From Octopus vulgaris (taxonomy: Eukaryota): a DNA stretch of 64,000 nucleotides. Location: contig OX597831.1 of NCBI GenBank assembly GCA_951406725.2, forward strand, positions 44,640,001 through 44,704,000, given 5' to 3'. The notes beneath the pieces were generated by a model. That model saw only the letters and a program-made list of their open reading frames with translations. It made no database searches and had not been told where the DNA came from. Every line of letters begins with the position of its first letter. Positions within the stretch are counted from its first letter, which is position 1. Positions 279 to 57,644 of this stretch are shown in pieces. Made by a program: the position numbers and the translations under genes.

Positions 279-314
279 CTATAATACATGGCGACAGACA
301 GGGCACGTACCAGA
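279..314 (-). CDS. Coding exon 7 (RING-H2 end and stop; 3'UTR continues toward position 1)
   Basis: ttttcttctctttctag|TCTGGTACGTGCCCTGTCTGTCGCCATGTATTATAG translates to SGTCPVCRHVL*. Confidence 0.93.
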   Translation of the reverse strand, partial: SGTCPVCRHVL

Positions 315-3300
315 CTAGAAAGAGAAGAAAATAGATAGGATTTAGTTACTTTCACAATTTCACATATTTATTGAACATGAAAAACAAATTATAATTTTTT
401 GATAACATAAAATGGTAAAATATTTATAAATTTTTATATATAAAAAAAAGGTAAAATATTTAAAAAATTTTATATATAAAAACAAATAGTAAAATATTTT
501 AAAATTTAAATATAAATATTTGGTCGACCTGGGGTCATAGTAGAAGACACTTGCCCAAGGTACCATGCAGTGGGACTGAACCCAGAACCATGTGGTCGGG
601 AAACAAGGTTCTTACCACACAGCCAATCCTTCTTATAATCCAGTTTTTGTTTTTCTCTCGCCCACTTGTGCTTCACTATTCACACACATACACACACACA
701 CACTAACATGAAGCAAGCTCATCACATTACTTTGCATTTAATAATGCTCCATGTTTTGCTACCATGCAATACCATACTTCATATACAAAGTGTCATGCAG
801 TATGCCTGATCTGGACAGAAAATTCCCTTGTTGCCACAAGAGGCAACACCGGAAATTCTTTCTATCCCGTCCTAACTCTGGCTAAAATTCTTTCATTGTT
901 TATTAGATTATCTAAATAACAGAAACTGTCAATTACTTCGACAGAATATTCCAGGCACTTTTTAAAGAATTCATTTCATGGGATTGCTCTTAGTGCTACC
1001 AACTTCTCTATGCATCTACGACATATGAATACCTTCTATTCTATCAGCCAGCCTATGACCCCACACCATGTCTTCTACAACCATTGTTTACAACCATTAT
1101 ACAACAGCAGAGGGTTCAACCTAAATATTTTATGTATTTGTGAAAGACAACTATCTCAAACTGCCGGCATCGGTTGTTAGTTGTCGGAGCACTGCATCCA
1201 TCAAAACTTCCATGCTTCCTGAGATTCGCCAACACTACACTTGATTTTCTCCCCTCCATACACACACAAGCATGTATCTAACTCATACATTGTTCGCCTT
1301 CCAGACATTTCTACATTACTGCATGTACTTTATATGCACTTTCTGACAAGTTGTGGTGCACCTGAGCACTGTATACAATAATTTCATTATTATTTTAATT
1401 TGGAAAACTAAATATGAAAGAAGAAAAAGTTTCAAAGCTCTTTAAAAAAACAACATAAAAAATAATTGGCTTTATTCAATTTGTTACATTAAAAATAAAA
1501 TTGAAATTTTCAAGTTAGAAGCAGTACTATAATGTAAACATTATCAATGTCACATAAGGTATGTGTGTTGTTAAATACTTTCTGACTGCAGTATTTCATC
1601 CAGGGGTAAGTCCCTTTAGTATTTAAACAGGTCATACCTAGCCAAAATATCCCAGCTGTTTTATATTCAAACTAGCCAGATCTGGCCCCTCCCCCTCCAA
1701 CCCTACAATATCATTCTCGAAATTAGCAGTTACCTCATCAAAATCTCAAAGCTACAAGATGATGCATGATTTAATTTAACCCTTTAGTGTTCAGATTATT
1801 TTATCAAATATAATGCTTATTGATTCCCATTGATTTGAATTAATCATGCATTATCTCATATCTTCAAGATCTTGATGGTGTAATTACTTAATATAGAATA
1901 ACATTGTAGGGTAGGTGTGAGGGCCTGGATCTGGTCAGTTTGAACATAAAACAGATTAAATATTTTGGCCGGATATGGCCGGTTTAAATACTAAAGGGTT
2001 AAAACAATGTGAATAAATAAGCATTACTTTTGACAGAATAATCTGAATGCTAAAGGGTTAAAGACATAGAATGTTAAAAAACACGGATTGTATACTTTGA
2101 AGCCAGGTGAAACGAACTGCTTTTGAGGCGAATGAGAATGACCTGTTAATATTTTTTGTTTCAGCTAGTTGGTGCCACATACTCAATTTGACTTTGAGTT
2201 GAATTCAAACTGTCGACCTCAAATATATACATATAGCATATAATCTATCTGCTAATGTTGTACAAATAAAAGAAAATTTTAATTCTGAATCAGAAGTAGC
2301 TCTAATAACCTGAATATTATTGAGGTCACATATCTGAAGCATGCGTGTTATTAAACGCTTCATGATTGCAGTATTTTGTACAGGGAAGGTCCCTTTAAAG
2401 ACATACGATGTTAAAAATCACACATTGTATACTTCAAAGGCAAGCAAGACAAACTGTTGCTGAGGTGAATGAGAACTACAGACATTGATATTTCAATTAT
2501 TTCGGCTCATCATATATTTGATTTGAACTCTAGACAAATTCAAACTGTTGGCCCCAAGTATATACAGATATCATAAAATCTATCTGCTGATGTGCAACTG
2601 TGCTACACAAGTAAAACAAAACTCAAAAATTTGAGTTAGAAGCAGCTCTATATTGTGACATTATCAATGTCACAATCTTGATGTATGTGGGTTGTTAAAT
2701 ACTTCCTGACTGCAGTATTTCGTCCAGGGAAGGTCCCTTTAAAGATGTACAATGTTTAAAAAACACACATTGTATACTTCAAAACCAGTTGAAACGAACC
2801 ACCTTGGAGGCAAATGGGAATGATACATCAATATTTTGTTTTTATTTCAGCTAACTGGTGCCACATACTTACATACTTAATTTGACTTTGAGTCAAATTC
2901 AAATTCCTGGCCTCAAGTATATAAAGATAGCATAAAATCTATCTCCTGATGTGAAACTGTGCTACACAAGTAAAACAAAACTCAAAATTTGAATCAGAAG
3001 CATAACAAACATTATCAATGTCACAATCTTGATGTATGTGTGTCGTTAAATGCTTCATGACTAGTATTTCATCCAGGGAAGGTCTCTTTAAAGACACACA
3101 GTATTGGTATTTAACAACACTCATAAATGAAGTACCTTAAGACATTGATAAAATGAAAATAGAAATCAATGTATTTTATCAGTCTGAGATTAAATCTGAA
3201 CAAGAGGAAAATTACTTGTATAATGCTTACCTTTATAAGCCATGCCCGAATACATAACATGTGGAAGAGATGATGACATGGTAGTTTAGCCATTTTCTCT

Positions 3301-6300
3301 TCTAATTCCCATGGACATAAACAGATTGGACAGCTGGCTTCTTCATCTTGAAATGAAAATAACTCTTGGTTAGATAACTACACACAACCGATTAGGCATA
3401 TTCATATGAACAAAATCATAACCCATACATTTTTGAACCCTCTACCATTAGATTATTCAGGATCAAAGGAGATAAATCCATCCATGAGTATTGACTTCTA
3501 CTTGGTACCAACAAGATCCAATTCATGTTATGGCAAACTAACAAGGGAACCTGTACATGGTAACCCAACCTGTTAGAAATAGCAGTCAAACCTCTTTCAA
3601 CTCATACTTTGTCTTAACCTTTTAACATTTAAACTGGATATATTCAGTTGAAGTATCCTACCTGTTTTATGTTCAAACTGGCCAGATTTGGCTTATCATA
3701 CCTAGCTGACAATGTCATTCTAAAAATAAACAATCACATCATCGAAATCTCAAAGCTATGAGATGATGCAGGATTACTTCAAACCAATATGAATAAATAA
3801 GCCTCGCCTGGCCCCCGTGCCGGTGGCACGTAAAAGCACCATCCGTTCGTGGCCGTTTGCCAGCTCCGTCTGGCTCCGTCTGGCTCCTGTGCGGGTGGCA
3901 CGTAAAAAGCACCCACTACACTCGCGGAGTGGTTGGCGTTAGGAAGGGCATCCAGCCGTAGAAACACTGCCAGATCAGACTGGGCCTGATGCAGCCTTCT
4001 GGCTTCACAGACCCCAGTTGAACCGTCCAACCCATGCTAGCATGGAAAACGGACGCTAAATGATGATGATGATGATATACTTGACTGAGTAATCTGAATG
4101 TCACAGGGTTAAAAGTAGGGTTGATTCTAACAGAGACTGAGCTCATATTCTAGAGAAACTAATTCTAAATATTACAAAGCATTTGATCTAACATTCTACT
4201 GCCAACATCAAACCATTATACTACAAATATTCCTCTTTCCTTATGCAGAAGAATCCACTTAAGACTTTTTTAAAGTAGAGTATATTATATAATCTCAACA
4301 TTGTCTGTCATCTCTATCTCTCTCCCTTGCTCCCTGAGGTGACATATTAGGAACAATATCAACAAAACTTGCTGGATTAAGATCCTTTATGAGGTAGCAA
4401 ACCAACAAGAATGGGGTGACCTGGCTTTCTAAATATAGCCTCCAAAATCCCTCTACTTCCTTAGATACACTATGTTTCTAAAAAAAGGATAATTTGGGCA
4501 TGGCTGGAATATCCTTGATCTTAGGCTAACAACAACAACTATTAATGAATTTTTCATTTTCTAAAATGTGAGTAGCTATGTAGCTCCTCTACAACAAAAA
4601 ACTTTATCCTACTTTACTTTCTCTTTGCATAAAATTTTTTCCTTGGAGTTAGTATTTGTGCAAGGTGATTAATTTGAACAAATATTGAAGGGCAAAAAAG
4701 AGAAAGCGTACATTAAATAATAGGACTTTGGTCTGAATAAAAGACTTGATAGTCCCAGTCAGAACGCTTTTGTCGATATATATCTCCTTAGTCAGAGCTG
4801 ACCTCGAGTCAAACAACAACAACCACTGTTCTGGTTACACCCACAAAAGGGAACTAAACTCAAAAATCAGTAATGCAAACTTGAAAAACAACTTGTCAGT
4901 TTAATATTATTCTTCCTGCTTCATGTGGTGAGTTGCTTTGATTGTTGTACATATTTACAGATAGGCAGACTGAGCTACATCAGAGTTTAGTATGTTTAAA
5001 TGACAAAAGGTAATAGCTGTTTCAAATTTTGGCATGAAGCCAGTAATTTTAGGGGGCGGGGGCTTAGTTTGATATTAATCCCCCACCCCCACACTCTGTA
5101 TTTAACTGGTACTTTATTTTATCAGCTCTGAAATGATGAAAAGCAAAGTTGATCCTGGTTGGATTTGAACTCAGAACATAAAGTGCAAGAAGAAATGCCA
5201 CACACTAAAAGCATTTCGTCCAACATGCTAAAGTCTTTGCCAACCTCCAGAAGACTAAAACACAAAAATGTACATTATACACACACACACACACAAAAAA
5301 AAACACATTTATAATTATCATTTGTACAAGAATACAAATTTAGAATTGCTCTAAAATAATTCTGGAGTTAGAAAGAGTTTGTACAAACCAAGCAACTAAG
5401 GTATTGTGATACTGACCGAGTTGGCTTTTATCAGCTTTGACACATCTTATCAGAGTGTATTTAAGTTAAGAATAGAAAATTTATCATCTAACAATGTATA
5501 AAGGTTATATCTCCGATTGCCCAGGACTTTGAGAAGGATGATTCCTAATAATCACTGGCGACATTGTTGTCAGATTATTCAGTGCATGAAGGCGGCGAGC
5601 TGGCAGAAATGTTAACATGCCGGGCGAAATGCTTAGTGGTATTTCGTCTTCTGTTATGTTCTGAGTTCAAATTCCACCAAGGTTGACTTTGCCTTTCATC
5701 CTTTCGGGGTCGATAAATTAAGTACCAGTTACGCACTGGGGTCGATGTAATCGACTTAATCTGTTTGTCTATCCTTGTTTGTCCTCTCTGTGTTTAGGCC
5801 CTTGTGGGTAGTAAAGAAATAGGTATTTTGTCTGTCTTTACGTTTTGAGTTCAAATTCCACCAAGGTTGACTTTACTTTTCATCCTTTCAGGATCGATAA
5901 ATTAAGTACCAGTTGCGTACTGGGGTTGATCTAATCGACTGGCCCCACCTCCCCCAAAATTTTGGGCCTTGTGCCTAGAGTAGAAAAGAATTATTCAGTG
6001 CATTGATACAATCGTTAGTGGTATTTAGTTGTATGTTCTGAGTTCAAATTACACCAAAGTCAACTTTCTTTTTGTTGTTCCAGGGTCAATAAACTAAAAT
6101 GCCAGTAAATACTAGGGTCAATTTAACCAACACCACCCCACAAATTTTTGGCCTTGTGCCTGAATTTGAAAGGAAAGTGTGATGTTAAGTTAGCAAAATT
6201 GTTAGAGATTTGAATAAAATGGTTTGCAACATTTAGTTATGTTCTCTCTGAGTTCAAATACTTCGCAGGCCAGCTTTGCCTGTCATCCTTCTGGGATTGA

Positions 6301-9300
6301 TAAAATCAAATATCAGACAAGTGCTGGAATCAATGGTATCAACTATCCCCATTTCCTCAAAACTGCAAACCTTGAGCCTGAATTAGAAACCGCATTATTA
6401 AGACAGTAAGCTAGTAGAATTGTTAGCACATCGGATGAAATATTAGAAGTATTTTTTCCTTGATCTTTACAGTCTGAGTTCAGCTTTGCTTTTCCTCTTC
6501 CTAGAATCAATAAAATATCACCTAGACTGGCCAGGCTGTCTAGTGCTGAGTTGGATCTGTGGGCCACAGCATTTGCTCAATTTTGCTTGTGTTCTTGCAA
6601 TAAGTTTACTGTTATTAGTGGCCCTTTTTTTTTTCGCCTTTAACCCTCCAACGTGGAGTATAGGCCACTTATAACTGAATTCCATGTCGCATAATTTTTC
6701 GCTTCTGTACTTATACTCTGCCATGAATGTCCCCCTTTCTCTAGTTCCTTTTGTGTTGATCTACGCCATGATTTCTTAGGCCTACCTTTCTTTCTATATC
6801 CATCCGGATTCCACTGTAAAGCACTTTTCGCTACATTTGGTGTGTCTTTTCTAATTGTGCTACCAATCCAGTTCCACTTTTTTTTAAATATTTGCTCCCT
6901 AATCGAAACTCGATTTGTTCTTTGCCATAGCTCCATATTGCTTATGTGTTCTGGCCATCTAATTCTAAGTATACTACGCAAGCATCTGTTGATGAATGAT
7001 TGTATTTGATTATTTGATTAAACTGTTGTTCACCATGTCTCAGCCCCATACAATAACACCGCTTTTATGTTAGTGTTAAAAATTCTTATTTTGTTCTTTA
7101 TTGAAATTACACTTGCGCTCCATGTGGGTCTTATAATTGTAACAGATCTATTTTATCTTTCTTGGAAATGAACGACGTTGCTTGTATGACAGTGACACTC
7201 ATTTACAACTTAAAGTATACCGACAGTTCGAAAAAGAAAGCAGCGAACTTAGGCTTTTATTTGCTTACAATTCGACCAACTCTTGAAAACAATATACACA
7301 TTTTAATTTACACTTATTCGGTAAGATACAAATATACACTATCAATATCCAGCCAAGTCCATATATTCAAACAAAAGAAGAGCCTACATATTTAAACAAA
7401 TGAACCAATATATTCACCTGTTTAATATTGAATCCACTCATTTTTAACTTTCCATTTAATATTCTAATAACACTTTATTATAATTTACAAGCACAAAGTC
7501 AGATGAAACGGGTTCAAATCCTATGGCTATTTTAGGGAATCAAATGACTGTATCTGAAAACTATAAAATACATCAGAAAGCCTTTCTACAATCTACATAA
7601 TTGCTTAAAATCACAACACAACTATGGAGAATGGCGAAAGCACAATAAAATATAGTACCAGTTTAAGTATTGGAGTCAATGTAATTGATATGCCCCTCCC
7701 ACTAAAAACTGCTGGCCTTTTACCAAAATCAGAAAGATAACGAAAAGATTTATTATTTATTTATTTTTGGAGTTGCCAGAAACATGTGTTTTATACAAAT
7801 TTAAGCTCACAAGTTTCTGCAAAATATTGGATTACTTTCTAAATTGTATTTACAGTAATCACTTGCCATATTGCAGTCTACCTATCATGTCCTCAGTACA
7901 TTGTGGATTTTTCTGGCTAATATATGTAAATTTATACCACAGACTTCTCAGTATATTGCGGGTTTCTGCAGCCAATAGGTATTTATATTTGTTTAGATTT
8001 TAATTATTTCTCTGATAAAATAAGCATTTTCACACCTAAAAATTAATAAATAAAAATACTGTACAGTATTACACTGTATAACACATTAATTAAAATATTA
8101 AAAGAAAATACTATGAGTACCATAGGTGAGTAAACAAAGAATTTCACATAGTGTATGGAAAACGAAACACGGGAGGAGAGTGTGCGGTGTTGTTTTGCTT
8201 TTGTGTGTAAAATTGTGAATTTATTTCAAGCCCTATGTTCTGCACCGTCTAAGACTTCTAGCAGTCAACCCAAGGACCAGAGGAAGATGCTTACTATAGC
8301 AGAAAAGGTGAGACTCCTCGACATGCTTAAAGAAGGTTGAAGGCATGCAGATGTAGGCTACCATTATGGTATCAATGTATCTACCGTTTGCTACATCAAG
8401 AAGGACGAAAAAATATAAGGGTGACAGCAAAAGTGACTTTTAATAAGACAGTGAAAAAGGTGGTAACGTCCTGCAATAAGGCCATTGTAAGAGGGCCAGT
8501 CGGGCGGTTCTGGCAACGACCACGCTCAAAAGGTGTTTTTACGTGCTACCTGCACGGGAGCCAGTCCAGCGGTACTAGCAACGACCATGCTCAAATGTTG
8601 TTTTTCACGTGCCACCGGCACACATGCTGGTAAGCCGACGCTAGCAACAATAACGCTCAAATGGTGCTTTTCCCGTGTCACCGGCACAGGAGCCAATCCA
8701 TGGCCCTGGCATCGATCACGCTCGGATATGCTTTTAACGTTCCAAGGGCACGAGTGCCAATCATAGGGTACTGTCATCGGCCACGTCAGCGATTTTGATT
8801 TGTTTATATTATCATATTTGTATCTACCATATAGCTTATTTTTTAAAAAGTTTAGTCAGGGAGAGAAGCCTGACGTCCATGGATCTTTGTCATGGTCACT
8901 AAGACTGAAGGGACAAAGAAGACGGATCTCGATATCTTCAAACTAGAGAACAAGTCTTATGCTACACGTTGGACTCTACAAAAGCGACTGATAGGCCAGG
9001 TAGTGGTGTTGAAATAGGCGACAACTAAGGGCAATCTTTCGTCTCTAGTAGACCTTTCCGTCGATTTCCGTAAAAAAATTTTTTTTTTTACATATGGGCT
9101 TGCGGGAACTTTTGAAGTAATGAGAGCGAAAGAGACTAAGAGAAAGCGATTGTATGACGAGGGAAGTTCTTTTGAAGTTACCGTGCATGGCAAGCATTGA
9201 TGTACATGTGTGTGTGTGTGTTTGATGGGGTGTGGGAGACAGACAGTATGTTGTGTAAGTGAAGTACTTCTGTTAGTGTGTGTGAAGAGACAGAGAGAGT

Positions 9301-10180
9301 AATGTGTCTCTTTCGCTCTCATTACTTCAAAAGTTCCCGCAAGCCCATATGAAAAAAAAATTTTTACGGAAATCGACGGAAAGGTCTACTAGAGACGAAA
9401 GATCGCTCAACTAAGTCTTTTACCCTTATACCACCATAGCTAAAATATGACGATCCACAGAAAAGTGAGAGTTTCAATAATTTACAAAAGGTGATAGAAA
9501 CGACGGACAATACGCGTTGAAGTCTCCTCTCACTCTCCTCTCTCAGTGTGGTTTGCAAGTCGATCGAAGGGAAGTAACTCACTGAAAGGACAACTCGGGT
9601 GAATCGAACCATTTGATAAAATAAGCGAGACGAGTAATTGGGTTAATTATAAAATGACAAAATATCATCAAAAGCAGTGTTCCATCATGGTTGCGGTCTA
9701 ATGACTGAAACTAGTAAAAGAATAACTTACGAGATGTAATGAAGAATAGGAAAACTAGAGAATATTTATGATTAGGACAGACGCAGGTATGATCGTGTTG
9801 CGAAGTTTGCTTCCTAAACACATGGTTTTGGGTAAACACGGCATGGCACTTTGGGCAAGTGTCTTATACTACACCCCTGGGCCAATAAAAGCCTTGTGAA
9901 TGGATTTGGTAGGCAGAAATTGAAAGAAGGCGACGAGCTGGCAGAAACGTTAGCACGCCGGGCAATATGCTTAGTGGTATTTCGTCTGCCGTACACGTTC
10001 TGAGTTCAAATTCCGCCGAGGTCAATTTGCCTTTCATCCTTTTGGGGTCGATAAATTAAGTACCAGTGACGCACTGGGGTCGTTGTAATCGACTTAATCC
10101 GTTTGTCTCTTCTTGATTGTCCCCTCTATGTCTAGCCCTTTGTGGGCAATAAAGAAATAAGAAACTGAAGGAAGCCCAAA

Positions 10181-10224
<44 letters not shown>

Positions 10225-11024
10225 AGTGAATTGAAGAAATGGAGTTGAACGAAGATTGAACAGAAATCGTTTTATTGCATTCTACACGTGTTTCGAAAGG
10301 CACAATTTACCAAATTCCGATTGAATAATGAGACCATATTGTGTCTTTCTCTTCAGGAAGAAATAGGAAATCCGTTGGAATAAACAAAAACAGAACAGAG
10401 GCGGAGCAAAACAAATCGAACGAGGCTCCTAAGAGCCCATGGCCAAACTGTTTATCAATGTATGTTGAAAACGGGTGGTGGGTGCGTTGAAGATTTTAAC
10501 GGGTCAGGCAGCGGTCATTTCGGTGGGTGAGGGCACGGGGTGCGTAGATGTTCTTTGTGACCGAGACTAAAGTTCTGACTATTTAAAGAATATTAGGTGT
10601 ATTATATGGGGCGAGACAAAATCTACTTAGAGACATGTGTGTGTGTACTGTTCTATATATGTGTGCGGCTGCAAGTTGGTAAGAAGCGCTACATTCTGGT
10701 CACTGCTGAGAACTCCGTCAAGGGGTAGAAAATATTTTATGTGTACGTGTGTGCATTTGATCGCGCGGCCGTCAGTTGGTAAACAGCTCTACCCAATGGT
10801 CACTGCTGTAGAATGCAATAAAACGATTTCTGTTCAATCTTCGTTCAACTCCATTTCTTCAATTCACTAATAATATTAAAATTCAATTATCCGCACTAAC
10901 GCACGGTTGCAACACCATATGGTTGTACCTCCAACCGTGCTGTCTTCTGCTGTGATTTTTGCTACCAAGGTATCGGTTAAACTTTTGATTAATCTGCAAC
11001 AAGATTATTCATCTTTCTATTTCA

Positions 11025-11060
<36 letters not shown>

Positions 11061-11873
11061 TCCTCATTTAACGTCTGATTTCCATGCTGGCATGAGTTAA
11101 ACGGTTTGACGGCAACTGGTAAACTGGAGAGCTGCACCAGGTTCCAGTCTGATTTGGCATGATTTCTACGGCTGGATGCCCTTCCTAACGCCATCTACAT
11201 ATGTACATACATGCTTCTGTCTCTTTGTCATGGCTGTAAATGAGTGTCATTCATTTCCAAAATAAAAGAGATATGTTACAATTATAAAACCCACAAGTGC
11301 CACAAATAACAGTAACCTTATTCGTATATATTTTTTTTTTTTTGCTCAATTTGTAATAAAGACAGGCTTACTGATATCTTCCTGTGTCACAACGACAGTC
11401 TGCAAGTTGTCAATGAGAGTCAGAGGAGCAGGGGGTGGGGCTTGATCATTGAGTAAATCTGGATGGACAGCCAGCATCTGCAAAATAACATTCTGTTAAA
11501 GAGAAAAATACAAAGCAACTTTAGAAGTAATTAAGCAAAAAAAAAAAAAAAGGACAAGATGAGTTCATAGTTGATTAACATGGAAGAGGACAGAAGATTA
11601 AATACTATGATAAATCATTGTTGTTCTCCCACTAATGCTAAAGAATGAGACAGGACGTTTTGTAAAGCGACCCTGATTTAAAGTGTTAATACACAGATGG
11701 CAGTTAATATTCTGAGAGAGGCTGTGTGGTAAGTAGCTTGCTAACCAACAACATGGTTCCGGGTTCAGTCCCACTGCGTGGCATCTTGGGCAAGTGTCTT
11801 CTGCTATAGCCTCGGGCCGACCAAAGCCTTGTGAGTGGATTTGGTAGACGGAAACTGAAAGAAGCCTGTCGTA

Positions 11874-20800: not shown

Positions 20801-22385
20801 TTATTATTAGCACAAAACCATTCTGAGATTCGACAAAATATATTCCAACACATAAGTTCACATCAAGAATCTTCGAAACCAAATAAAATAATGAAATAAT
20901 AATGATAATGTGAGAATTCAATAACGATACAGGTAACAACAAACACATTCAGATTTTACCTTCTAATCCACCTTTCATTTTCTTCTTCTGTCGTAAGTAA
21001 TTTTTAGTTCCTTCGTGTATGGAATCAGATGAACAAGCAGTTTCTCCATTGCGGTGCTTTCTTAAAGTCTGAGATTTTCGTTTCTGTTTCTTAGGTTCTT
21101 GTTCCTCGTTTTGAGCAGTTCCCCGGTATTGCTGATGTGAAGAATTCCGTATGTAATCATCTTCGAATATTGAACTACAATCGGTTATGTCTGAATCACT
21201 ACTGGACAATTCAAAGAAGCTTTTATCATCACTACTTATGAGACGGCTCAGCCTACATTCCAGCATTTTAAAGGTCTGAGCTTGAATACTATGTGAACTG
21301 TCTTCGAAGGAACATACAGGCGACGTTGATATTTTGGTGACGGCTGTAAAAGGAGCCGATGTAGTCTTCAGCTGATGAGGGTAAGAAATAATTTGTTTCT
21401 GATAACGACTTAGATTTAAGTCTGTGTGGGAAGAAGACAACATGCAGTTTGAGTTATTGTGGTCTGTGGTTTGGGTTAGGTCACAATCATCTGCACGTAA
21501 ATTAAACATTCCAGGGCTTCGTTCAAGCATGCAACTGTCAGTCTTTAGATCAATTTCATTTTCAGATTTTGAACAATTATCATCTTTTTGGTGTTTAGTA
21601 TAAGGCGTTGGTTTGGGCAGTGAAATAGCAACAGAATTTTTTAATAATTCTGCTTGGTTATCTATATTTATATCGACATTAGCAGAGTCTACTGTTGACA
21701 ATAAGGGCATTTTATTTGTAGACAGAATAGGAGAAGGTATAGGCATATCATTTAGAAGCTTAGATGTTTCACAAACGGCAATCGAATCATTATCCATTAA
21801 ATTTCTTCTTGCCAAATGGTAGCGACTGTTTCTCATTGCCCCCTTACCTTTCAGTGGCAAGGTTTGTGTTGAAAAGTGAAATGTCTGATTGACGTAACTA
21901 GTTAAGGGAGATGACACAGCGAAAGATGAAGTTGAAGACGATAAAGCTTTACGTAAGGCCTTTCCTGCATTTTTCCATCTTTGCAAAGGTTCATCTTGGT
22001 CGCAAGGATTCTCTTGAATAGAATTTAAAGGTTTTATATCTGGTAAAATGGAATGACGGTTCGACAGAAAGCTGCTTGACGTAGTCAAGGAAGAAAAATT
22101 TAAGTCTACAGAGGTGTTTTCCTGACAAGCATTATCTTGCCCTTCATCAGTTTTCTGACTGAAACGTGCTGACTTGGACTTACTTAACGTTAAAAGAGAT
22201 GAGTAAACTTTAGGTCTTGCCCCTTTTATAGTAATTGAAGTGGCAGTAACATTGCTGTGGGGTAAATCATCAGGATTGTCTGTGCCACTTGCATCATCTG
22301 AAGAATCAGATGCGTTTTCATTCATAGATAAATGTTGCTGTGGATTTTGATGATTATCCTGCATCTTAGCAACCCAAAACAACAT
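279..22385 (-). CDS. Spliced gene model (7 coding exons, ~960 aa): RING-H2 E3 ubiquitin ligase, Praja (PJA1/PJA2)-like architecture
   Basis: Hand-assembled exon chain; every intron is GT..AG, phases 1,0,2,0,1,0 are compatible, and the total of 2883 nt equals 961 codons including TAG. C-terminus: ...QAPPPAPLTLIDNLQTVVVTQEDINEEASCPICLCPWELEEKMAKLPCHHLFHMLCIRAWLIKSGTCPVCRHVL*. This is a C3H2C3 RING-H2 preceded by PPPA, as in the Praja/RNF126/RNF115 group; the long disordered N-terminus favours Praja. The start is ATG 22385 (MLFWVAK) or 22364 (MQDNHQ). Confidence 0.88.
520..625 (-). mobile_element. tRNA-derived CORE-type SINE fragment
   Basis: Reverse complement of the ggctgtgtggtaag...ggttcagtcccactgca...ccttgggcaagtgtcttct family. 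Confidence 0.8.
1130..1395 (+). mobile_element. 3' end of a CR1/L2-like LINE
   Basis: Reverse-complement match to the 3' part of the element at 49660-50350; ends cacctgagcactgtatacaataatttcattattatt. Confidence 0.65.
1500..3100. repeat. Diverged tandem array of a ~350-bp unit (about 3.3 copies) in the last intron
   Basis: The landmark agaagcag...cattatcaatgtcac...gtatttc.tccaggg..ggtccctttaaagac recurs at about 1517, 2292, 2638 and 2996; the first copy is interrupted by MITEs. Confidence 0.85.
1612..2057 (+). mobile_element. TTAA-type (piggyBac-like) MITE family A, carrying a nested inverted copy at 1780-1998
   Basis: TIRs CCCTTTAG...CTAAAGGG. The inner copy is flanked by TTAA (1776-1779, 1999-2002); the outer copy ends in TTAA at 2058. 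Confidence 0.85.
3231..3346 (-). CDS. Coding exon 6 (RING-H2, first six ligands)
   Basis: tttcatttcaag|AT ... AAG|gtaagc. Reads EEASCPICLCPWELEEKMAKLPCHHLFHMLCIRAWLIK. Confidence 0.93.
3618..4108 (+). mobile_element. MITE family A copy interrupted by an RTE-tail repeat (3800-4077)
   Basis: ttaa|cctttt...aatctgaatgtcacaggg|ttaa; the insert ends in (gat)n. Confidence 0.75.
5588..5989 (+). mobile_element. Dimeric tRNA-derived SINE (second family; central gcctttcatcctttcggggtcgataaa domain)
   Basis: Head ggcggcgagctggcagaa with B-box-like gagttcaaattcc. The body module is duplicated. A 14-bp TSD attattcagtgcat lies at 5574-5587 and 5990-6003. Older copies follow at about 6010-6600. Confidence 0.85.
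6640..7140 (-). pseudogene. 5'-truncated RTE-clade LINE ORF2 C-terminus
   Basis: ...LRIRWPEHISNMELW...KWNWIG...ALQWNP.G.RKKGRPKKSWRR is typical of RTE ORF2 ends; the upstream part encodes FNTNIKAVLLYGAETW. Confidence 0.85.
8230..8490 (+). pseudogene. Tigger/pogo transposase N-terminal HTH remnant
   Basis: RKMLTIAEKVRLLDMLKEG*RHADVGYHYGINVSTVCYIKK is a psq/CENP-B-type HTH with an in-frame stop. Confidence 0.8.
9030..9407. mobile_element. Young fold-back MITE with ~105-bp TIRs and 8-bp TSD
   Basis: Arms at about 9030-9137 and 9305-9407 are nearly perfect reverse complements. CAACTAAG is duplicated at 9022-9029 and 9408-9415. Confidence 0.85.
9782..10180 (+). mobile_element. CORE-type SINE with a second-family SINE nested at ~9927-10160
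   Basis: The host motif agaaa(t/c)tgaa(a/g)gaag is repeated on both sides of the insert. Confidence 0.8.
10217..10876 (-). mobile_element. Penelope-like element remnant with inverted pseudo-LTR ends
   Basis: ~70-bp inverted arms (10217-10286 and 10807-10876) next to (TA)n, plus an internal hammerhead motif. Confidence 0.7.
10280..10359 (-). ncRNA. Minimal type-I hammerhead ribozyme, intact core
   Basis: Minus strand: UUC-CUGAAGA-[GAAAGACACAAU...AUUGUGCCUUUC]-GAAA-CACGUG-UA^GAA. Stem II is 12 bp with one mismatch; stem III is the palindrome ACACGUGU. Confidence 0.75.
11372..11492 (-). CDS. Coding exon 5 (PPPA pre-RING motif)
   Basis: ctctttaacag|AAT ... ATCA|gtaagc, 121 nt. Reads NVILQMLAVHPDLLNDQAPPPAPLTLIDNLQTVVVTQEDI. 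Confidence 0.9.
11718..12232 (+). mobile_element. CORE-type SINE with an RTE-tail repeat inserted in its (TA)n tract (11925-12087)
   Basis: Family consensus head and CORE (ggcatcttgggcaagtgtcttct); the body resumes after (gat)n. Confidence 0.8.
12877..13098 (+). mobile_element. TTAA-type MITE family B
   Basis: ttaa|ccctttcgttactgtatt...ggttggtatcaaaaggg|ttaa. Other copies at about 16165-16338 (-), 22502-22721 (+) and 57828-58047 (-). Confidence 0.85.
13894..14005 (-). CDS. Coding exon 4
   Basis: tttcag|G ... CAG|gtaaga, 112 nt. Reads (W)STALSEDSQLDIAELNPLDLLLMRQDARRDMLELMFQ with no stop. Not in the ORF track. Confidence 0.85.
14151..15035 (+). mobile_element. Two tandem CORE-type SINE copies
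   Basis: Copies at about 14151-14535 and 14645-15035, with a tRNA-like A/B-box head and an internal (TG)n. Confidence 0.85.
15036..15320 (-). mobile_element. CORE-type SINE, inverted relative to its neighbours
   Basis: Reverse complement of the same family. Confidence 0.85.
15475..15752 (-). CDS. Coding exon 3 (acidic, CxCxxC-containing)
   Basis: Acceptor tttttcccgttgcag|TCT; donor CACTG|gtaaat (phase 2). Reads SDTHSDLERDSDSADADDEFECDCIHCLQ...NH. Confidence 0.85.
17033..17330 (+). mobile_element. Distinct tRNA-derived CORE-like SINE (reverse copy at ~25085-25310)
   Basis: tggcgcagtagtta...gagttcaatctcc...tgtgtccttgagcaagatactt. Confidence 0.65.
18104..18897 (-). CDS. Coding exon 2
   Basis: Acceptor ttttctttcttcttcag|AA; donor GAA|gtaagt. 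Reads ETVENVPLIAGG...DADCHSE, in frame with the 250-aa ORF. Confidence 0.88.
20058..20230. repeat. Long fold-back hairpin (PLE-type inverted end) inside (AAT)n
   Basis: Arms 20058-20137 and 20154-20230; the inner 30 bp are perfectly complementary. Confidence 0.85.
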
Positions 22386-49659: not shown

Positions 49660-50350
49660 AATAATAATAATAATGAAATTATTGTATACATTGCTCAGGT
49701 GCATCACAACTTGTCAAAAGTGCATATAAATCATATGCAGTAATGTACAAATGTCTGGGAAGTGAACTGTGTATGAGTCAGATACATGCTTGCGTGTATA
49801 TGGAGGGGAGAAAATCAGGTGTAGTGTTGGTAAATATCAGGAAGCATGAAAGTTTTGAAGGATGCAGTGCTCCGACAACAACTGATGCCGATAGTTTGTT
49901 CCATGCTTCAGCAACTCTTAGCATGAAAAATGTTTCCGAAAGTCATGGGAGCTGTGCTGTTTTCTGACTTTGTAAACATGTCCACAGGTGTTAGACAGGT
50001 GGAGTTTGAAAAGGTGCTCAGAGTTATTATTAGTAAGATGGTTAATAATTTTATGAGTGTCTGCTAAGTCAGCTACCAGACATTGGAGTTTCAATGTATC
50101 CATGCCCAGGGAAGTAAGGAATTCAGAATATGGCAAATGCCTGATGGAGGGTATGCTCTTGGTTGCACGTCGCTGAACGGTTTCCAGACAATTAATATCC
50201 TGGGCAAGATAGGGGTTCCAGACCGGTGATGCAAATTCCAGGTGAGGCCACACCATAGCTATATAAAGCCTCTGATAGATACCCGGAGAGCAGCTCACAA
50301 AGGACTTGGTGAGTGATGGCAAGACACCCTCGGCCTTCATGGCAATTTTA
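49660..50350 (-). pseudogene. CR1/L2-type LINE ORF2 3' fragment
   Basis: LYIAMVWPHLEFASPVWNPY...LETVQRRATK.IPSIRHLPYSE.L..LG, a CR1-like C-terminus, ending at (AAT)n. Confidence 0.85.
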
Positions 50351-50878
50351 GCAACTTCTGCTATGGAGTATGAGTCTTCTTGAGTACAACAAGGTGATAG
50401 GTATCTCAGTCCTTTGTCATAATTTGTTACGGAAAAGTTTTCACTGCCAGATGCTTTTCTTGGCAAACCTTTATCTATTTCCAAATAAGGTAATATTTTC
50501 TCAAATCCATTGAAAATGAACACAAAAATGAGTGGATATGTTTTAACAGAAGACTGCAAGAAAGGAAAAGAAAAAAATATTCTGTCTTCTTTTTCTTAAG
50601 ATATAAAATTTGTAAAAGCTGGCAGAAACATTTGCATGCCAGGTGAAATGCTTAGCAGTATTTCACCTGTATTTATGTGCTGAGCTCAAATTCTGCCAAA
50701 GTTGACTTTGCTTTTTATCCTTTTGGGGGTCGATAAATTAAGTACCAGTTGCACACTGGGGTTGTTCTAATCAACTGGTCCCCTCCCCAATAATTTCAGG
50801 CCTTGTACCTAGAGTAGAAAAGAATATATAAAATTTGTACACCACGTCAAACAATCTATACATACACACATACATACG

Positions 50879-53596: not shown

Positions 53597-55519
53597 TGTC
53601 TGACTAGCAGGATGAAGCGGCTGACCTCCCCTGTTCAAAGGTTTGTAATGGACGCAGGTTGTGTGTCAAATAGCTAGCTAGAGGCGGTGGCCTCTTGGAG
53701 CTAATCAGCGACAGCTTTAGTCTTATATTCAGCGGTGGTGCCCCAGCATGGCCGCGGCCTTCGGGCTAAAACATTTTTAAGGATTTAAGGATATGAACAG
53801 GTACATCTAAATTGAATGAAAGACCTCTGCCATTCAAAAATGACAATTGAGTTGTTTATTCAACTGAATTATCTGCTCCTGCATTAATGCATAATTGGTT
53901 GAGCATCCAACAATTCATCATCATTATCGTTGTCATAGTTGTCATCATCATGGTCGTTATCATCATCATCATTTAACATCCACTTTCCATGCTGGCATGG
54001 GTTAGATGGTTTGACTCATGCAAGCATGGAAAAGTGAATAAATGATGATACAGTACTTATGACTTAAGACAATGGTAATTTCCTTAAAGGATTCCTGCAG
54101 CAATTATACCTTATAAATTTCTATTATTACATCATAGTCTGACAACGAGCTAGCAGAATTGTTAGCAGGCTGGGTAAAATGCATAGTGGCATTTGTCTGT
54201 TCTTATATTCTGAGTTCAAATTCGGCCAAGGTAGACTTTGGCTTTCATCCTTTCAGGGTCAATGAAATAAGCACCAGATATGCACTGGGGTCAATGAAAT
54301 AAGTATCAGTTATGCACTGGGGTCGATGTAATTGACTAACCCTTCCCCCAAAAATTTCAGGTCTTGTGTCTTTAGTAGAAAGGATTATTACATCCTAGTC
54401 CATTGGCTACAGAACAGATGCTGTGCAGAAGCATATAAACTACATTTACTTTAAGCTTTGTTTGAACTTCATCAAGATTTGGACAATAGCCAGAAGCATT
54501 GTTTGACAGAGGAATAACTTTGGGTAGCAAATCAATAATGATGCAGAAATTGTACACAACAATGTAAAACTGGTTTGTATCCTTGTCTGAGAATCATTCC
54601 TGCCTGACATACTTCTTATTCAACTTCCAGTAAATAGGCAACAGTAAGTTATTTCTCCCTTTCAATGCACAAAGTTTTTTTTTCCAAGAGCTATACTAAT
54701 TTCAGAGCTCCCAAAACATTACCACCAAGAAGCCATGTTAGTTTATCCTTCTGAAAACTTTTCTTCAATGGCAATAGAGGTCTTGAAGGCATTCTCTACC
54801 AATATAATCTGCCACTGCTACTGCTATCAATGTCATGATCATCAATGATCATCATCATCACCATAATGTATGGTTTTCCATGCTAGGCATGTTGAGACAT
54901 ATTTTCTGTGGATGGATGCTCTTTCTATCTTTTCAACTCAAAGCACAAGGCCCGAAATTTTTGGGGAGGTGGGGCAGTTGATTAGATCAACACAGTATGC
55001 AACTGGTACTTAATTTATTGACCCCGAAAGGATGAAAGGCAAAGTCGACGTCGGCGGAATTTGAACTCGGAACATCAAGACAGACGAAATACCGCTAAGC
55101 ATTTTGCCCGGCGTGCTAACGATTCTGCCTGCTCACACTCACCTGTTTCCAAGCAAGGTAATGTTCCTCTATAGCCAGGCGTGTTTTACATGGAAAAGTG
55201 GAAACAGTAGTGCTTGTATGCTGGTGAGCCTCACTGACATCCATCATCAAAAATCAAGCCAAAGATACACAGACATATTGGTTTCAAATTTTGGCACAAA
55301 TTCAACAAGTTCAGGGTTAGGGATAAGTCAATTATATTTGACACCAATGCTCAGCTGGTACTTATTTTATCAACCCTGAAAGGACAAAAGGCAAATCAAC
55401 TTCAGTGAAATTTGAACTCAGAACGTAAAGACAGATGAAAAGCCACTAAGCATTTTGCATGACATGCTAATGGTTCTGTCAGCTTACTGCCTTAGACACA
55501 TACATACATTATATAATAT

Positions 55520-55922
55520 GGACTGAACCTTGGTGGGCCCCTACTTCTACCTGGAATTCTTCACTGTACTCATTTCCAACTCTCATCTTACTGACAGCAT
55601 CCCTGTACATGGCTTGCACAGCTCTCACTAACCATTCATCTATCCCTAGTTTCCTCATTGACCACCGGATAAGGGATTGGGTGAACCTGTCAAAGGCTTT
55701 CTCCATGTCAACAAAAGTCAGGTACAGAAGTTTATCTTTGGCTAGGTATTTCTCCTGCAGCTGTCTTACCAGAAATATAGCATCAGTGGTGCTTTTCCCT
55801 GGCACGAACCCAAACAGCATCTCATCTAAACTGACTCTCTCCCTAATTAGTTGGGCTATGACCTTCTCCGTGACCTTCATTACCTGATCCAACAACTTGA
55901 TACCTCTGTAATTATTTGTATC
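55520..55922 (-). pseudogene. RTE reverse-transcriptase fragment
   Basis: FGFVPGKSTTDAIFLVRQLQEKY...FVDMEKAFDR...V.VGAHQGS are RT core motifs. Confidence 0.9.
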
Positions 55923-57644
55923 TAAAATTATAGAATATTGTATATATATATATTAGATTGTTTCGCATGACATGTTGTATTTGAAAGGTAACAATGAAAT
56001 GTTTCAGAAGTGTTAGAGAACTGATTTATTTAATCAAAGTATGATCCATGTTTGTTTATGATGTTTACCCAACGTTTCTCTATATCATATATTCCATCTT
56101 TAAAAAAAATTCCTCTTTTGCTGTGATAAACTATCCAAATGCTTCAATTACCTCTTCTCTATTTAAGAATGTTTTATTGCTTATGAAAAGCTCAAAACTA
56201 CTTTTATATATATATATATATATATATCATCATCATCATCGTTTAACATCCATTTTCTACGCTAGCATGGGTTGGATGGTTGGGGGCTGCACCAGGCTCC
56301 AGTCTGATCTGGCAGTGTTCTATTTCGCATATCCTGCTTTTCTGGTTCCAAAACATTTGTTTATCAGTGGCATATGGTGGTTGTTGTACTAGGTGTGCTG
56401 CCACACCCAATGCCACCAAATTTCAAGCAGGGGTATAACTAAAGATTTCCATTAAGATTTGTGATTAAATTAATGAGTATGGTTAATATTTATAACGAAT
56501 TTGCCATTTTCGATAGGTGTGCAGTGCACTCCTAGCACACACAGAATATACGCCCCTGATTTTTATTGTTGTTCCCTATATTTTTTTGTAATGGGTCATT
56601 GGTTCTTAGTGACAGTCTTTCTAATATCCTGTTTATTTACCCTTATCTAATTGCTATTTATTCTACCTAGGTGTTTCACAAATTGTTTTATTGAAGCATT
56701 TCCTGTTTTTTTCGTTACAGTTCAGTGATTAAGTCGTCATGATTCAGTAGCTTCATATCATGTTATTATTTCACCACTACCATCATCATCATCACCATCA
56801 TCATCATCATCTTCATCATCATCTTCATTATCATCGTCATCATCATCATCATCATCATAATGATCATCATCATCATCATCATCACTATCACCATCATTTA
56901 ATGCTCATGTTCCATGCTGTCATGGATCAGTGGGTCTAAGGAGTGCATTATGCATCGGCAAGGTTTCTATGGCTGGATGCTCGTCCTAATACAGACCACT
57001 TTACAGTGTGTATTGAGTGCTTCTTTTTTTGTGTTATTGGCATTTGTGAGGTCATCATGTAGCTTGCAAGCCTACAAAATCTGAGGAGGGGATGTGTCCT
57101 TATGCTAGTTGGGGTTTAAGGTATGAGAGGAGTTGGGGGAGTAGAGCAGGTTCTTGTAGAGAAAATACATGGCTATTCACATTTAAGGGAGAGATAAATA
57201 GTCCTGATGAGGTATCCAGGTGGCACCTCAAGGTGCAAGATGAGTAGTTGTCAGTGGGGACAGAAATGCTAGGGGTGTGTGCATGTAGGGATTTGCAAGA
57301 ACGCATTGGGTGGGGGAGAGGCAAGAGCTTGGGGAGAACGAGAAAGGGGAGGTAGGCAACATCTGTAAAGATTGGGGTAGAGTTGGAGGGTGGATGGAGG
57401 AAGTGGTGGATACAGGGGTTGGAAATGGCCAATGGTGCCATGTGCTGAGGATAATGATAATGATGATATTTTTGACAGTGAGTGAGAAGACAAGAGAGAG
57501 AGAGATGATATGTGTTTGGATAGGCTGCAGGAGAGAGGCACACAAAGTGCATGAAGAAAGATAATTTGGAGGTTGAGTGGAAGAAGAGGATCTATTCATT
57601 TACCATCTTTTTTTTCTTGTTAGCATGGATTGAATGGAGATTTG

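What the first reader, a model, noticed from the sequence alone, without database searches (positions are those of the whole stretch)
10280..10359. Intact hammerhead ribozyme, sense-oriented, in the intron separating the RING exon from the rest of the E3 ligase
Seen: the minus strand, which is the pre-mRNA sense strand, has the complete core CUGAAGA...GAAA...GUA. Stem II is 12 bp, stem I is 3 bp (UUC/GAA), stem III is the palindrome ACACGUGU, and CpGs are intact. Established: minimal type-I hammerheads with palindromic stem III are typical of Penelope-like element ends and cleave best as dimers. Inference: if active co-transcriptionally, it could cut the 8-kb intron between exon 5 (PPPA) and exon 6 (RING). 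That could lower full-length mRNA or give RING-less products, making it a TE-supplied RNA switch on a ubiquitin ligase.
Basis: partly seen in the sequence, partly recalled or inferred. Interest (0 to 1): 0.72.

Follow-up and report, generated by a model that had tools for sequence, protein, structure and literature searches.

The report
Retroelement's hammerhead ribozyme, self-blocked in intron
This is a real self-cutting RNA motif, but it is one of about 1,850 copies carried by a young jumping-gene family, and here the element's own reversed half is predicted to pair with and block the cut site, so it is likely a passenger rather than a switch on the host gene.

Summary
The motif is real: a minimal type-I hammerhead (minus strand 10359-10280, cut after A10283), sense to the pre-mRNA, in an 8,025-nt intron of a RING-H2 gene. 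It is not special to the host gene. It is the 3' ribozyme of a young Penelope-like retroelement (Hydra clade), with 1,849 intact-core copies in this genome. Full-length units (3,624 nt, RT plus GIY-YIG) lie in tandem elsewhere. The window holds a 5'-truncated inverted pair inserted in (TA)n. Its second arm (10807-10876) is transcribed first and is 70/70 complementary to the cut site and stem I; folding pairs them with probability 1.0. The copy also lacks the partner ribozyme such motifs need. The 'RNA switch' reading is therefore unlikely. Side results: the family's 'tail' is about 150 nt (30-40 in print) and one arm per pair carries it (28 of 28 pairs asymmetric). The CxCX5C linker is lost, yet (TA)n targeting is kept. 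One copy elsewhere is fused to 18S rRNA at the cut site, a hint of cutting in vivo. Earlier notes of this scan found other Penelope-borne hammerheads in this genome, but no look-alike of this stretch.

The parts
10280..10359 (-). Minimal type-I hammerhead: stem I 10359-57/10282-80, core 10356-10350 and 10294-10291, stem II (11 of 12 pairs, 31-nt loop), palindromic stem III 10291-10284, cut after A10283
   Evidence: sequence; descriptor scan, 1 hit against 0 in 50 shuffles
10217..10814 (-). Arm 1: 5'-truncated 3' end (3' UTR/pLTR) of a Hydra-clade Penelope-like element, ending about 66 nt after the cut site (short end)
   Evidence: 95-98% matches over about 598 nt to long copies, including L062, which carries a 908-residue RT/GIY-YIG frame; mean 97.6% to 63 distinct aligned copies
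10807..11028 (+). Arm 2: inverted second copy, starting within an 8-nt microhomology at the cut site and running to about +216 (long end); it lacks the ribozyme core
10807..10876 (+). Part of arm 2 that is 70/70 complementary to 10286-10217; in the minus-strand pre-mRNA it comes first and is predicted to pair with the cut site and the 3' strand of stem I
   Evidence: pair probability 1.0 at 10285-10280, duplex -111 kcal/mol, stem I probability 0
10877..11028 (+). About 150-nt 'tail': the sequence between the two preferred 3' ends, which in tandem arrays runs on into the 5' UTR of the next unit
   Evidence: bimodal 3' ends in 100 arms; tandem unit sequence
10184..10220 (.). (TA)n target microsatellite, left half
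11029..11058 (.). (TA)n target microsatellite, right half
11372..11477 (-). Host exon encoding the PPPA-containing segment (ends in phase 1)
3347..11371 (-). Host intron, 8,025 nt; the cut site lies about 1,090 nt from the donor and about 6,940 nt from the acceptor
   Evidence: splice sites and phase
3231..3346 (-). Host exon with six of the eight RING-H2 ligands
   Evidence: Pfam zf-RING_2 E 3.4e-9; PDB RING-H2 ligases
279..314 (-). Last coding exon, with the final CxxC of the RING (SGTCPVCR)

Best explanation
The hammerhead is the terminal ribozyme of a young Hydra-clade Penelope-like retroelement, left in this intron as part of a truncated inverted pair, and in the host pre-mRNA it is predicted to be held shut by the insertion's own antisense arm, so it likely has little or no effect on the ligase gene. 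Shown: copy number, element anatomy, coding relatives, tandem arrays and the 70-bp complement. Inferred, step 1: in multimeric element RNA two neighbouring ribozymes would pair their palindromes to build stem III and cut the precursor, probably helped by the element's protein. Inferred, step 2: the element's endonuclease would cut a (TA)n tract, and both DNA ends would prime reverse transcription at two internal sites (about +66 and +216 from the cut), giving a head-to-head pair with one short and one long end. Predicted, step 3: read-through transcription makes the antisense arm about 450-520 nt before the cut site, and the duplex excludes stems I and III.
For: 1,849 exact intact-core matches, control 0. 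44 of 50 listed matches, the window itself included, cover at least 194 of 196 nt at 99-100%. Long copies carry one frame with RIRW, DKT, RT motifs, a C-terminal GIY-YIG-like region, CxxC and CxH, matching the Hydra definition. A tandem array has four ribozymes at 3,625/3,624/3,624-nt spacing. 94 of 100 3' ends abut (TA)4+, and 28 of 28 inverted pairs have unequal ends, 25 of them long plus short. The same architecture with different stems and different palindromes occurs in 7 of 78 related metagenome loci, sense only, 0 antisense. Fold of the whole insertion at 37 and 18 C: cut site paired to arm 2 with P=1.0. No second copy of the motif in 64 kb. Literature.
Against: No cleavage assay and no RNA reads from this intron. 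Folding is an equilibrium model; helicases, A-to-I editing or a brief co-transcriptional window could open the duplex. The descriptor found 0 sense hits in 30 loci of other Hydra families of this genome (their flanks were short and many may not reach the 3' end). Pfam and NCBIfam did not recognise the element's protein, so the RT/EN call rests on motifs and alignment. Presence or absence of the insertion in other individuals is unresolved. One chimeric copy suggests that the family's ribozyme does cut in cells.
Confidence: 0.85

Rival explanations
1. Leaky, unselected cutting: the intronic ribozyme is occasionally freed from the duplex and completed in trans by one of the many family RNAs or by the element's protein, shaving a small fraction of pre-mRNA.
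For: The palindrome duplex is -10.3 kcal/mol; at least 1,849 potential partner loci; protein-assisted cleavage in a lizard element (PMC11167929); an 18S rRNA-element chimera joined at the cut site.
Against: The designed trans dimer is -23.4 kcal/mol against -36.5 for the best co-fold and -111 for the antisense duplex. Even without arm 2 the stem I probability is 0. Slow intronic hammerheads left splicing intact, as reported in PMC2995048.
Confidence: 0.1
2. Co-opted RNA switch: regulated co-transcriptional cleavage lowers full-length mRNA or yields RING-less products, as the CPEB3 intronic ribozyme tunes its mRNA.
For: Intact core, sense orientation, position about 1.1 kb after the donor of the intron before the RING exon; precedent in PMC10919898 (abstract).
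Against: Identity to dispersed copies leaves no sign of locus-specific selection; the antisense lock; no partner in cis. A cut fragment has no poly(A) site of its own and would be expected to decay rather than encode a RING-less protein (established knowledge).
Confidence: 0.03
3. The insertion matters to the host, if at all, as a 70-bp intronic double strand (A-to-I editing substrate or splicing modifier) rather than as a ribozyme.
For: Perfect 70-bp duplex 0.5-1.2 kb from the donor; editing correlates with double-stranded RNA across animals (PMC5625713, search listing only).
Against: Not tested; such duplexes are common (34 of 72 sampled intact-core arms have one), and intronic editing is usually without effect (own knowledge).
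Confidence: 0.07

Closest known systems
Hydra-clade Penelope-like elements and their hammerheads (Craig et al. 2021, PMC8557442; Hydra-1_Obim in supplementary files S1/S2)
   Same: RW and DKT motifs, C-terminal endonuclease with CxxC and CxH, (TA)n targets, 3' type-I hammerhead with palindromic stem III, inverted 5'-truncated copies, tail at one end; an octopus member with a hammerhead is already listed.
   Different: A different family: 3,624-nt unit and about 900-residue frame against 2,507 nt for Hydra-1_Obim; different ribozyme sequence with a 31-nt loop 2; tail about 150 nt against 30-40; CxCX5C linker lost in 4 of 4 frames examined. Four short search strings from this family gave no further hits in that supplement.
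Minimal PLE hammerheads (Cervera and De la Pena 2014, PMC4209133)
   Same: Core, long helix II, short helix I, palindromic helix III, thousands of dispersed single copies, opposite-strand pairs 100-700 bp apart.
   Different: No extra base between core position 9 and stem II; much lower sequence diversity (young family).
PAc/Poseidon element of Anolis (Frangieh et al. 2024, PMC11167929)
   Same: Two internal reverse-transcription start sites that define a tail; AT-rich targets; hammerhead near the pLTR-ORF junction.
   Different: Different clade; here the two ends lie about 150 nt apart and upstream of the start codon.
CPEB3 intronic ribozyme (PMC10919898, abstract only)
   Same: A self-cleaving motif in the sense strand of an intron.
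   Different: CPEB3 is a single-copy, HDV-like, monomer-active ribozyme with shown effects (class recalled; effects from the abstract); this one is a high-copy, dimer-type transposon motif with a predicted antisense block.
U6/LINE-1 chimeras made by RtcB (PMC6789731, abstract and outline)
   Same: Model for the 18S-element chimera at L101: a cyclic-phosphate RNA joined to a 5'-OH RNA and then retrotransposed.
   Different: Here the 5'-OH would come from a ribozyme; one case only, with a 2-nt microhomology that also allows template switching.

Membership tests
Type-I minimal hammerhead ribozyme | Core CUGANGA, GAAA, UH triplet | tested here: met
   core unchanged in about 60 aligned copies except one change at G10294
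Type-I minimal hammerhead ribozyme | Stems I and II can form; stem III palindromic | tested here: met
   stem II pair probability 0.13-0.83 depending on context
Type-I minimal hammerhead ribozyme | Architecture kept with changed sequence in relatives | tested here: met
   7 of 78 related loci (5 distinct sequences), sense only, four different palindromes
Type-I minimal hammerhead ribozyme | Match to an Rfam hammerhead model | tested here: not met
   no match; the long loop 2 and open stem III probably fall outside the models (inference)
Type-I minimal hammerhead ribozyme | Self-cleavage | not testable with these tools
   Only indirect: one chimera at the cut site; no clear excess of 5' ends there
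EN+ Penelope-like element | Single frame with RT and C-terminal GIY-YIG endonuclease | tested here: met
   motifs in P0001 and alignment to 11 of 417 homologues; no Pfam or NCBIfam hit
EN+ Penelope-like element | Tandem units, 5' truncation, inverted partner, tail at one end | tested here: met
Hydra clade | RWK-type and DKT motifs; CxxC and CxH around the conserved E | tested here: met
   RIRWL and SDKTR in the 3 frames that reach the N-terminal part; CNLCVSE in 4 of 4; CPH in 3 of 4
Hydra clade | CxCX5C linker | tested here: not met
   one Cys only at that place in 4 of 4 frames; present in 9 of 11 aligned homologues, the other two ending early. The family is therefore called Hydra-like, with a lost linker
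Hydra clade | (TA)n insertion preference | tested here: met
   94 of 100 ends
Hydra clade | Placement in an RT tree with reference clades | not tested
   no tree built; reference sequences were not held as data
Non-LTR retrozyme | Short non-coding tandem units of about 170-400 nt, each with a hammerhead | tested here: not met
   the unit is 3,624 nt and coding; no tandem repeat at this site
Host-regulatory intronic ribozyme (CPEB3 kind) | Locus-specific conservation across species | tested here: inconclusive
   no sign of locus-specific selection; other individuals unresolved
Host-regulatory intronic ribozyme (CPEB3 kind) | Able to fold as an active monomer in the pre-mRNA | tested here: not met
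   computed only: stem I probability 0, cut site in a 70-bp duplex

The most novel reading that the evidence does not exclude
This family's ribozyme does cut in germline cells (recorded by the 18S rRNA fusion at the cut site), and the head-to-head way it inserts supplies each ribozyme with its own antisense lock. That would let hundreds of live ribozymes sit in introns unpunished, with unlocked sense copies purged, and opening of the duplex by A-to-I editing could make some of them, this one included, conditional cutters of host pre-mRNA.
Probability: 0.1. Interest if true: 0.55.

Novelty: new member of a known kind. Interest (0 to 1): 0.22.

Why it matters
As it stands it is ordinary transposon cargo: hammerheads in Hydra-clade elements, including an octopus one, are in print. 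The useful points are a caution and a test bed. An intact, sense-oriented intronic ribozyme should be judged with its flanks, because the insertion geometry can silence it. This young family, with tandem full-length units, two sharply defined 3' ends 150 nt apart and a lost linker motif, is good material for the open questions of what these ribozymes do for the element and what directs (TA)n targeting.

Tried and rejected
Rfam at gathering and at E<=10 found no hammerhead. Pfam, NCBIfam and PDB sequence searches did not name the element's protein; five homologues gave only sub-threshold Pfam noise. The PPPA exon has no PDB match, so the ligase subfamily is not settled.

Insertion polymorphism is inconclusive. 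(4 of 24 listed runs, contigs) was swamped by repeats. At two letters private to this copy (10670, 10755) runs X1 and X3 showed no depth for the window's letter, while X2 kept about single-copy depth. But no listed piece bridged the arm junction in any of X1, X2, X4, X8. Holes in contigs prove nothing. No RNA run was laid.

Excess of copies starting at the cut site is not established. With an anchor at the cut site, 7 of 100 arms began within 0-2 nt. With an unbiased downstream anchor it was 8 of 77 truncated arms (97 of the first 100 of 368 rows recovered, 20 dropped as indels or continuing); P=0.04 against a flat rate and 0.14 against the local rate, and the peak at -16 (9 arms) is as large. 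Whole-genome patterns gave 19 at the cut site, 5 downstream and 14 upstream, with unequal pass rates. All 19 join element sequence, none foreign RNA.

A retrozyme reading was rejected (coding 3.6-kb unit). The second loose core at 22107-22150 is at chance level. Paper searches for octopus + hammerhead ribozyme, Penelope + hammerhead + inverted repeat + antisense and Penelope + inverted + ADAR + octopus showed no title or abstract start on antisense blocking; only listings were seen. One supplementary file of PMC4209133 could not be searched, bioRxiv supplements are closed, and Repbase was not available, so the family may already be catalogued.

Full report
Observation. Stem II has 11 pairs and one A.C mismatch around a 31-nt loop. 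Stem I is 3 bp next to the core and, by eye, continues beyond a bulged U. A loose core pattern is common by chance, but a full descriptor finds this site alone in the window and nothing in 50 shuffles. Rfam does not detect it. As an isolated strand it does not prefer the hammerhead fold (z +0.74; stem I pair probability at most 0.02). The host gene runs on the minus strand: exon 11477-11372 and exon 3346-3231 have compatible splice phases and frame an 8,025-nt intron, and the RING-H2 domain is completed by an exon starting at 314.

What it is. The motif lies in an 812-nt insertion (10217-11028) between two (TA)n tracts. The 196 nt around it match 44 of 50 listed genomic places at 99-100% over nearly their whole length, among 1,421 first-look candidates of which 40 were scored. 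A stretch 450 nt upstream has 257 candidates, as expected from 5' truncation. An exact pattern for the intact core matches 1,849 places, control 0. [quoted passage not shown] It has 417 homologues at up to about 43% identity, the best named one from Argonauta hians. A tandem array on C1 has four ribozymes 3,624-3,625 nt apart, each followed by the 5' end of the next unit. RIRW, DKT, CxxC, CxH and (TA)n targeting fit the Hydra clade as defined in PMC8557442; the CxCX5C linker is missing; no tree was built. That paper's supplement already lists an octopus Hydra family with a hammerhead, different from this one. Related elements in metagenome contigs carry the same architecture with other stems and palindromes in 7 of 78 loci, never on the antisense strand; 30 loci of other Hydra families in this genome gave 0 sense hits and 1 antisense hit, with short flanks. 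The species was not determined; the genome is 2.8 Gb.

Insertion anatomy. Among the first 100 of 668 exact matches to the 24 nt after the cut site, 53 end 54-68 nt downstream, 43 end at 212-216 and 4 end between; 94 abut (TA)4+. Of 28 head-to-head pairs, 25 join a long to a short end and 3 join a short to an intermediate end. The window copy is such a pair: arm 1 (10814->10217, short) and arm 2 (10807->11028, long). This fits the two internal priming sites and two-strand extension shown for a lizard element (PMC11167929). Applying that mechanism here is inference.

How it most likely behaves in the host transcript. Three things argue against cutting. First, the palindromic stem III needs a second ribozyme and the window has none; a single minimal motif showed no cleavage in PMC4209133, and the lizard ribozyme cut only with protein, with no RNA-seq ends at its site. 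Second, arm 2 is 70/70 complementary to 10286-10217 and is transcribed first. Folding the whole insertion at 37 or 18 C pairs 10285-10280 with it at probability 1.0 (duplex -111 kcal/mol), whereas the designed trans dimer is -23.4. Without arm 2 the site still tends to pair with 10370-10389 (P about 0.5-0.7), and stem I stays at 0. Third, slow hammerhead cuts in introns left splicing intact while a fast ribozyme aborted it, as reported second-hand in PMC2995048. Intact CpGs and core need no selection: the copy is about 2% from its relatives. The lock is common: 34 of 72 sampled intact-core arms have an antisense partner over the cut site in the upstream sequence held (up to 1.5 kb, often less). 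All of this is computation; no cleavage or expression data were obtained.

Does the family's ribozyme cut at all? Following leads from earlier scan notes, I tested whether copies start at the cut site. There is at most a mild excess (8 of 77; P 0.04 or 0.14 depending on the null; 19 against 5 and 14 in genome-wide patterns), and the 19 are all junctions with element sequence. One locus stands out. At C1:121058559-121059110 both arms begin at the cut site and are joined, at the same point, to a sense fragment of 18S rRNA, with a 2-nt microhomology. Ligation of a cleaved 5'-OH end, as for U6/L1 chimeras (PMC6789731), or a polymerase jump from a cleaved template end would explain it; an ordinary template switch would too. 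It is one case.

Polymorphism could not be settled from public contigs (see Tried and rejected).

Papers seen: PMC4209133, parts 1-2 of 4 and a supplement search (one file not searchable); PMC11167929, parts 1-2 of 4; PMC8557442, passages, outline, section 11, supplement part 2 of 59 and supplement searches; bioRxiv 10.64898/2026.07.22.740005, part 1 of 5 and passages (supplements closed); PMC7229834 and PMC2995048, passages; PMC10919898 and PMC6789731, abstract and outline; PMC5625713, listing only. The likeness of the host protein to Praja/RNF126-type ligases is recalled; the calls show only a RING-H2 domain with best PDB hits to ARK2C, Arkadia and RNF126.

Verdict. A real but ordinary transposon ribozyme: a new Hydra-like family, with this copy likely silenced by its own inverted arm. 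The host-switch reading gets about 3%. Interest 0.22.

Noticed in passing
L101 1526-2076 (G000:C1:121058559-121059110): Both arms of an inverted insertion start at the ribozyme cut site and are fused at the same point to a sense fragment of 18S rRNA (2-nt microhomology); a possible record of cleavage in vivo.
   Followed up: yes
window 10877-11028 and 100 sampled arms: Two 3' ends about 150 nt apart; 28 of 28 inverted pairs are asymmetric. Published tails are 30-40 bp.
   Followed up: yes
L062, L152, L154 frames: The CxCX5C linker, suggested in print to be tied to (TA)n targeting, is lost and replaced by a long low-complexity stretch, yet 94 of 100 ends abut (TA)n.
   Followed up: partly
equivalent of window about 10417-10458: 5' truncation hotspot: 30 of 100 arms begin 134-175 nt upstream of the cut site. 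Unexplained.
   Followed up: no
equivalent of window 10299: 9 of 77 short arms end at -16, several as fold-backs at an 8-nt palindrome overlapping the ribozyme's GAAA.
   Followed up: partly
L152/L153 (G000:C1:119514364-119525313): Tandem array of four units, period 3,624 nt, with long open frames; it belongs to a second subfamily, about 89% alike in the 3' UTR, in which the U.C mismatch of the extended stem I is a U-A pair.
   Followed up: partly
L320-L349: About five further Hydra-type families with open frames of 680-850 residues in this genome.
   Followed up: partly
L248, L270, L272, L280, L282, L315, L319: Hydra-like elements in metagenome contigs with type-I hammerheads and 6-10-nt palindromic stem III; hosts unknown.
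   Followed up: partly
window 9927-10160 and 11059-11193: The insertion sits between two very high-copy SINE-like repeats, which hampers genotyping.
   Followed up: no
G000:C20:23.96-24.08 Mb (L356-L361): rDNA array with a period of about 18.4 kb; the 18S gene is GC-rich and longer than the model.
   Followed up: no
window 10370-10389 with 10291-10270: Without the antisense arm, the element's own upstream sequence tends to pair with the cut-site region (P 0.5-0.7), a possible built-in off state.
   Followed up: partly
window 6640-7017, 49918-50595, 55509-55952: Frames that look like fragments of LINE reverse transcriptases, the first inside the same intron (recognised from recall).
   Followed up: no
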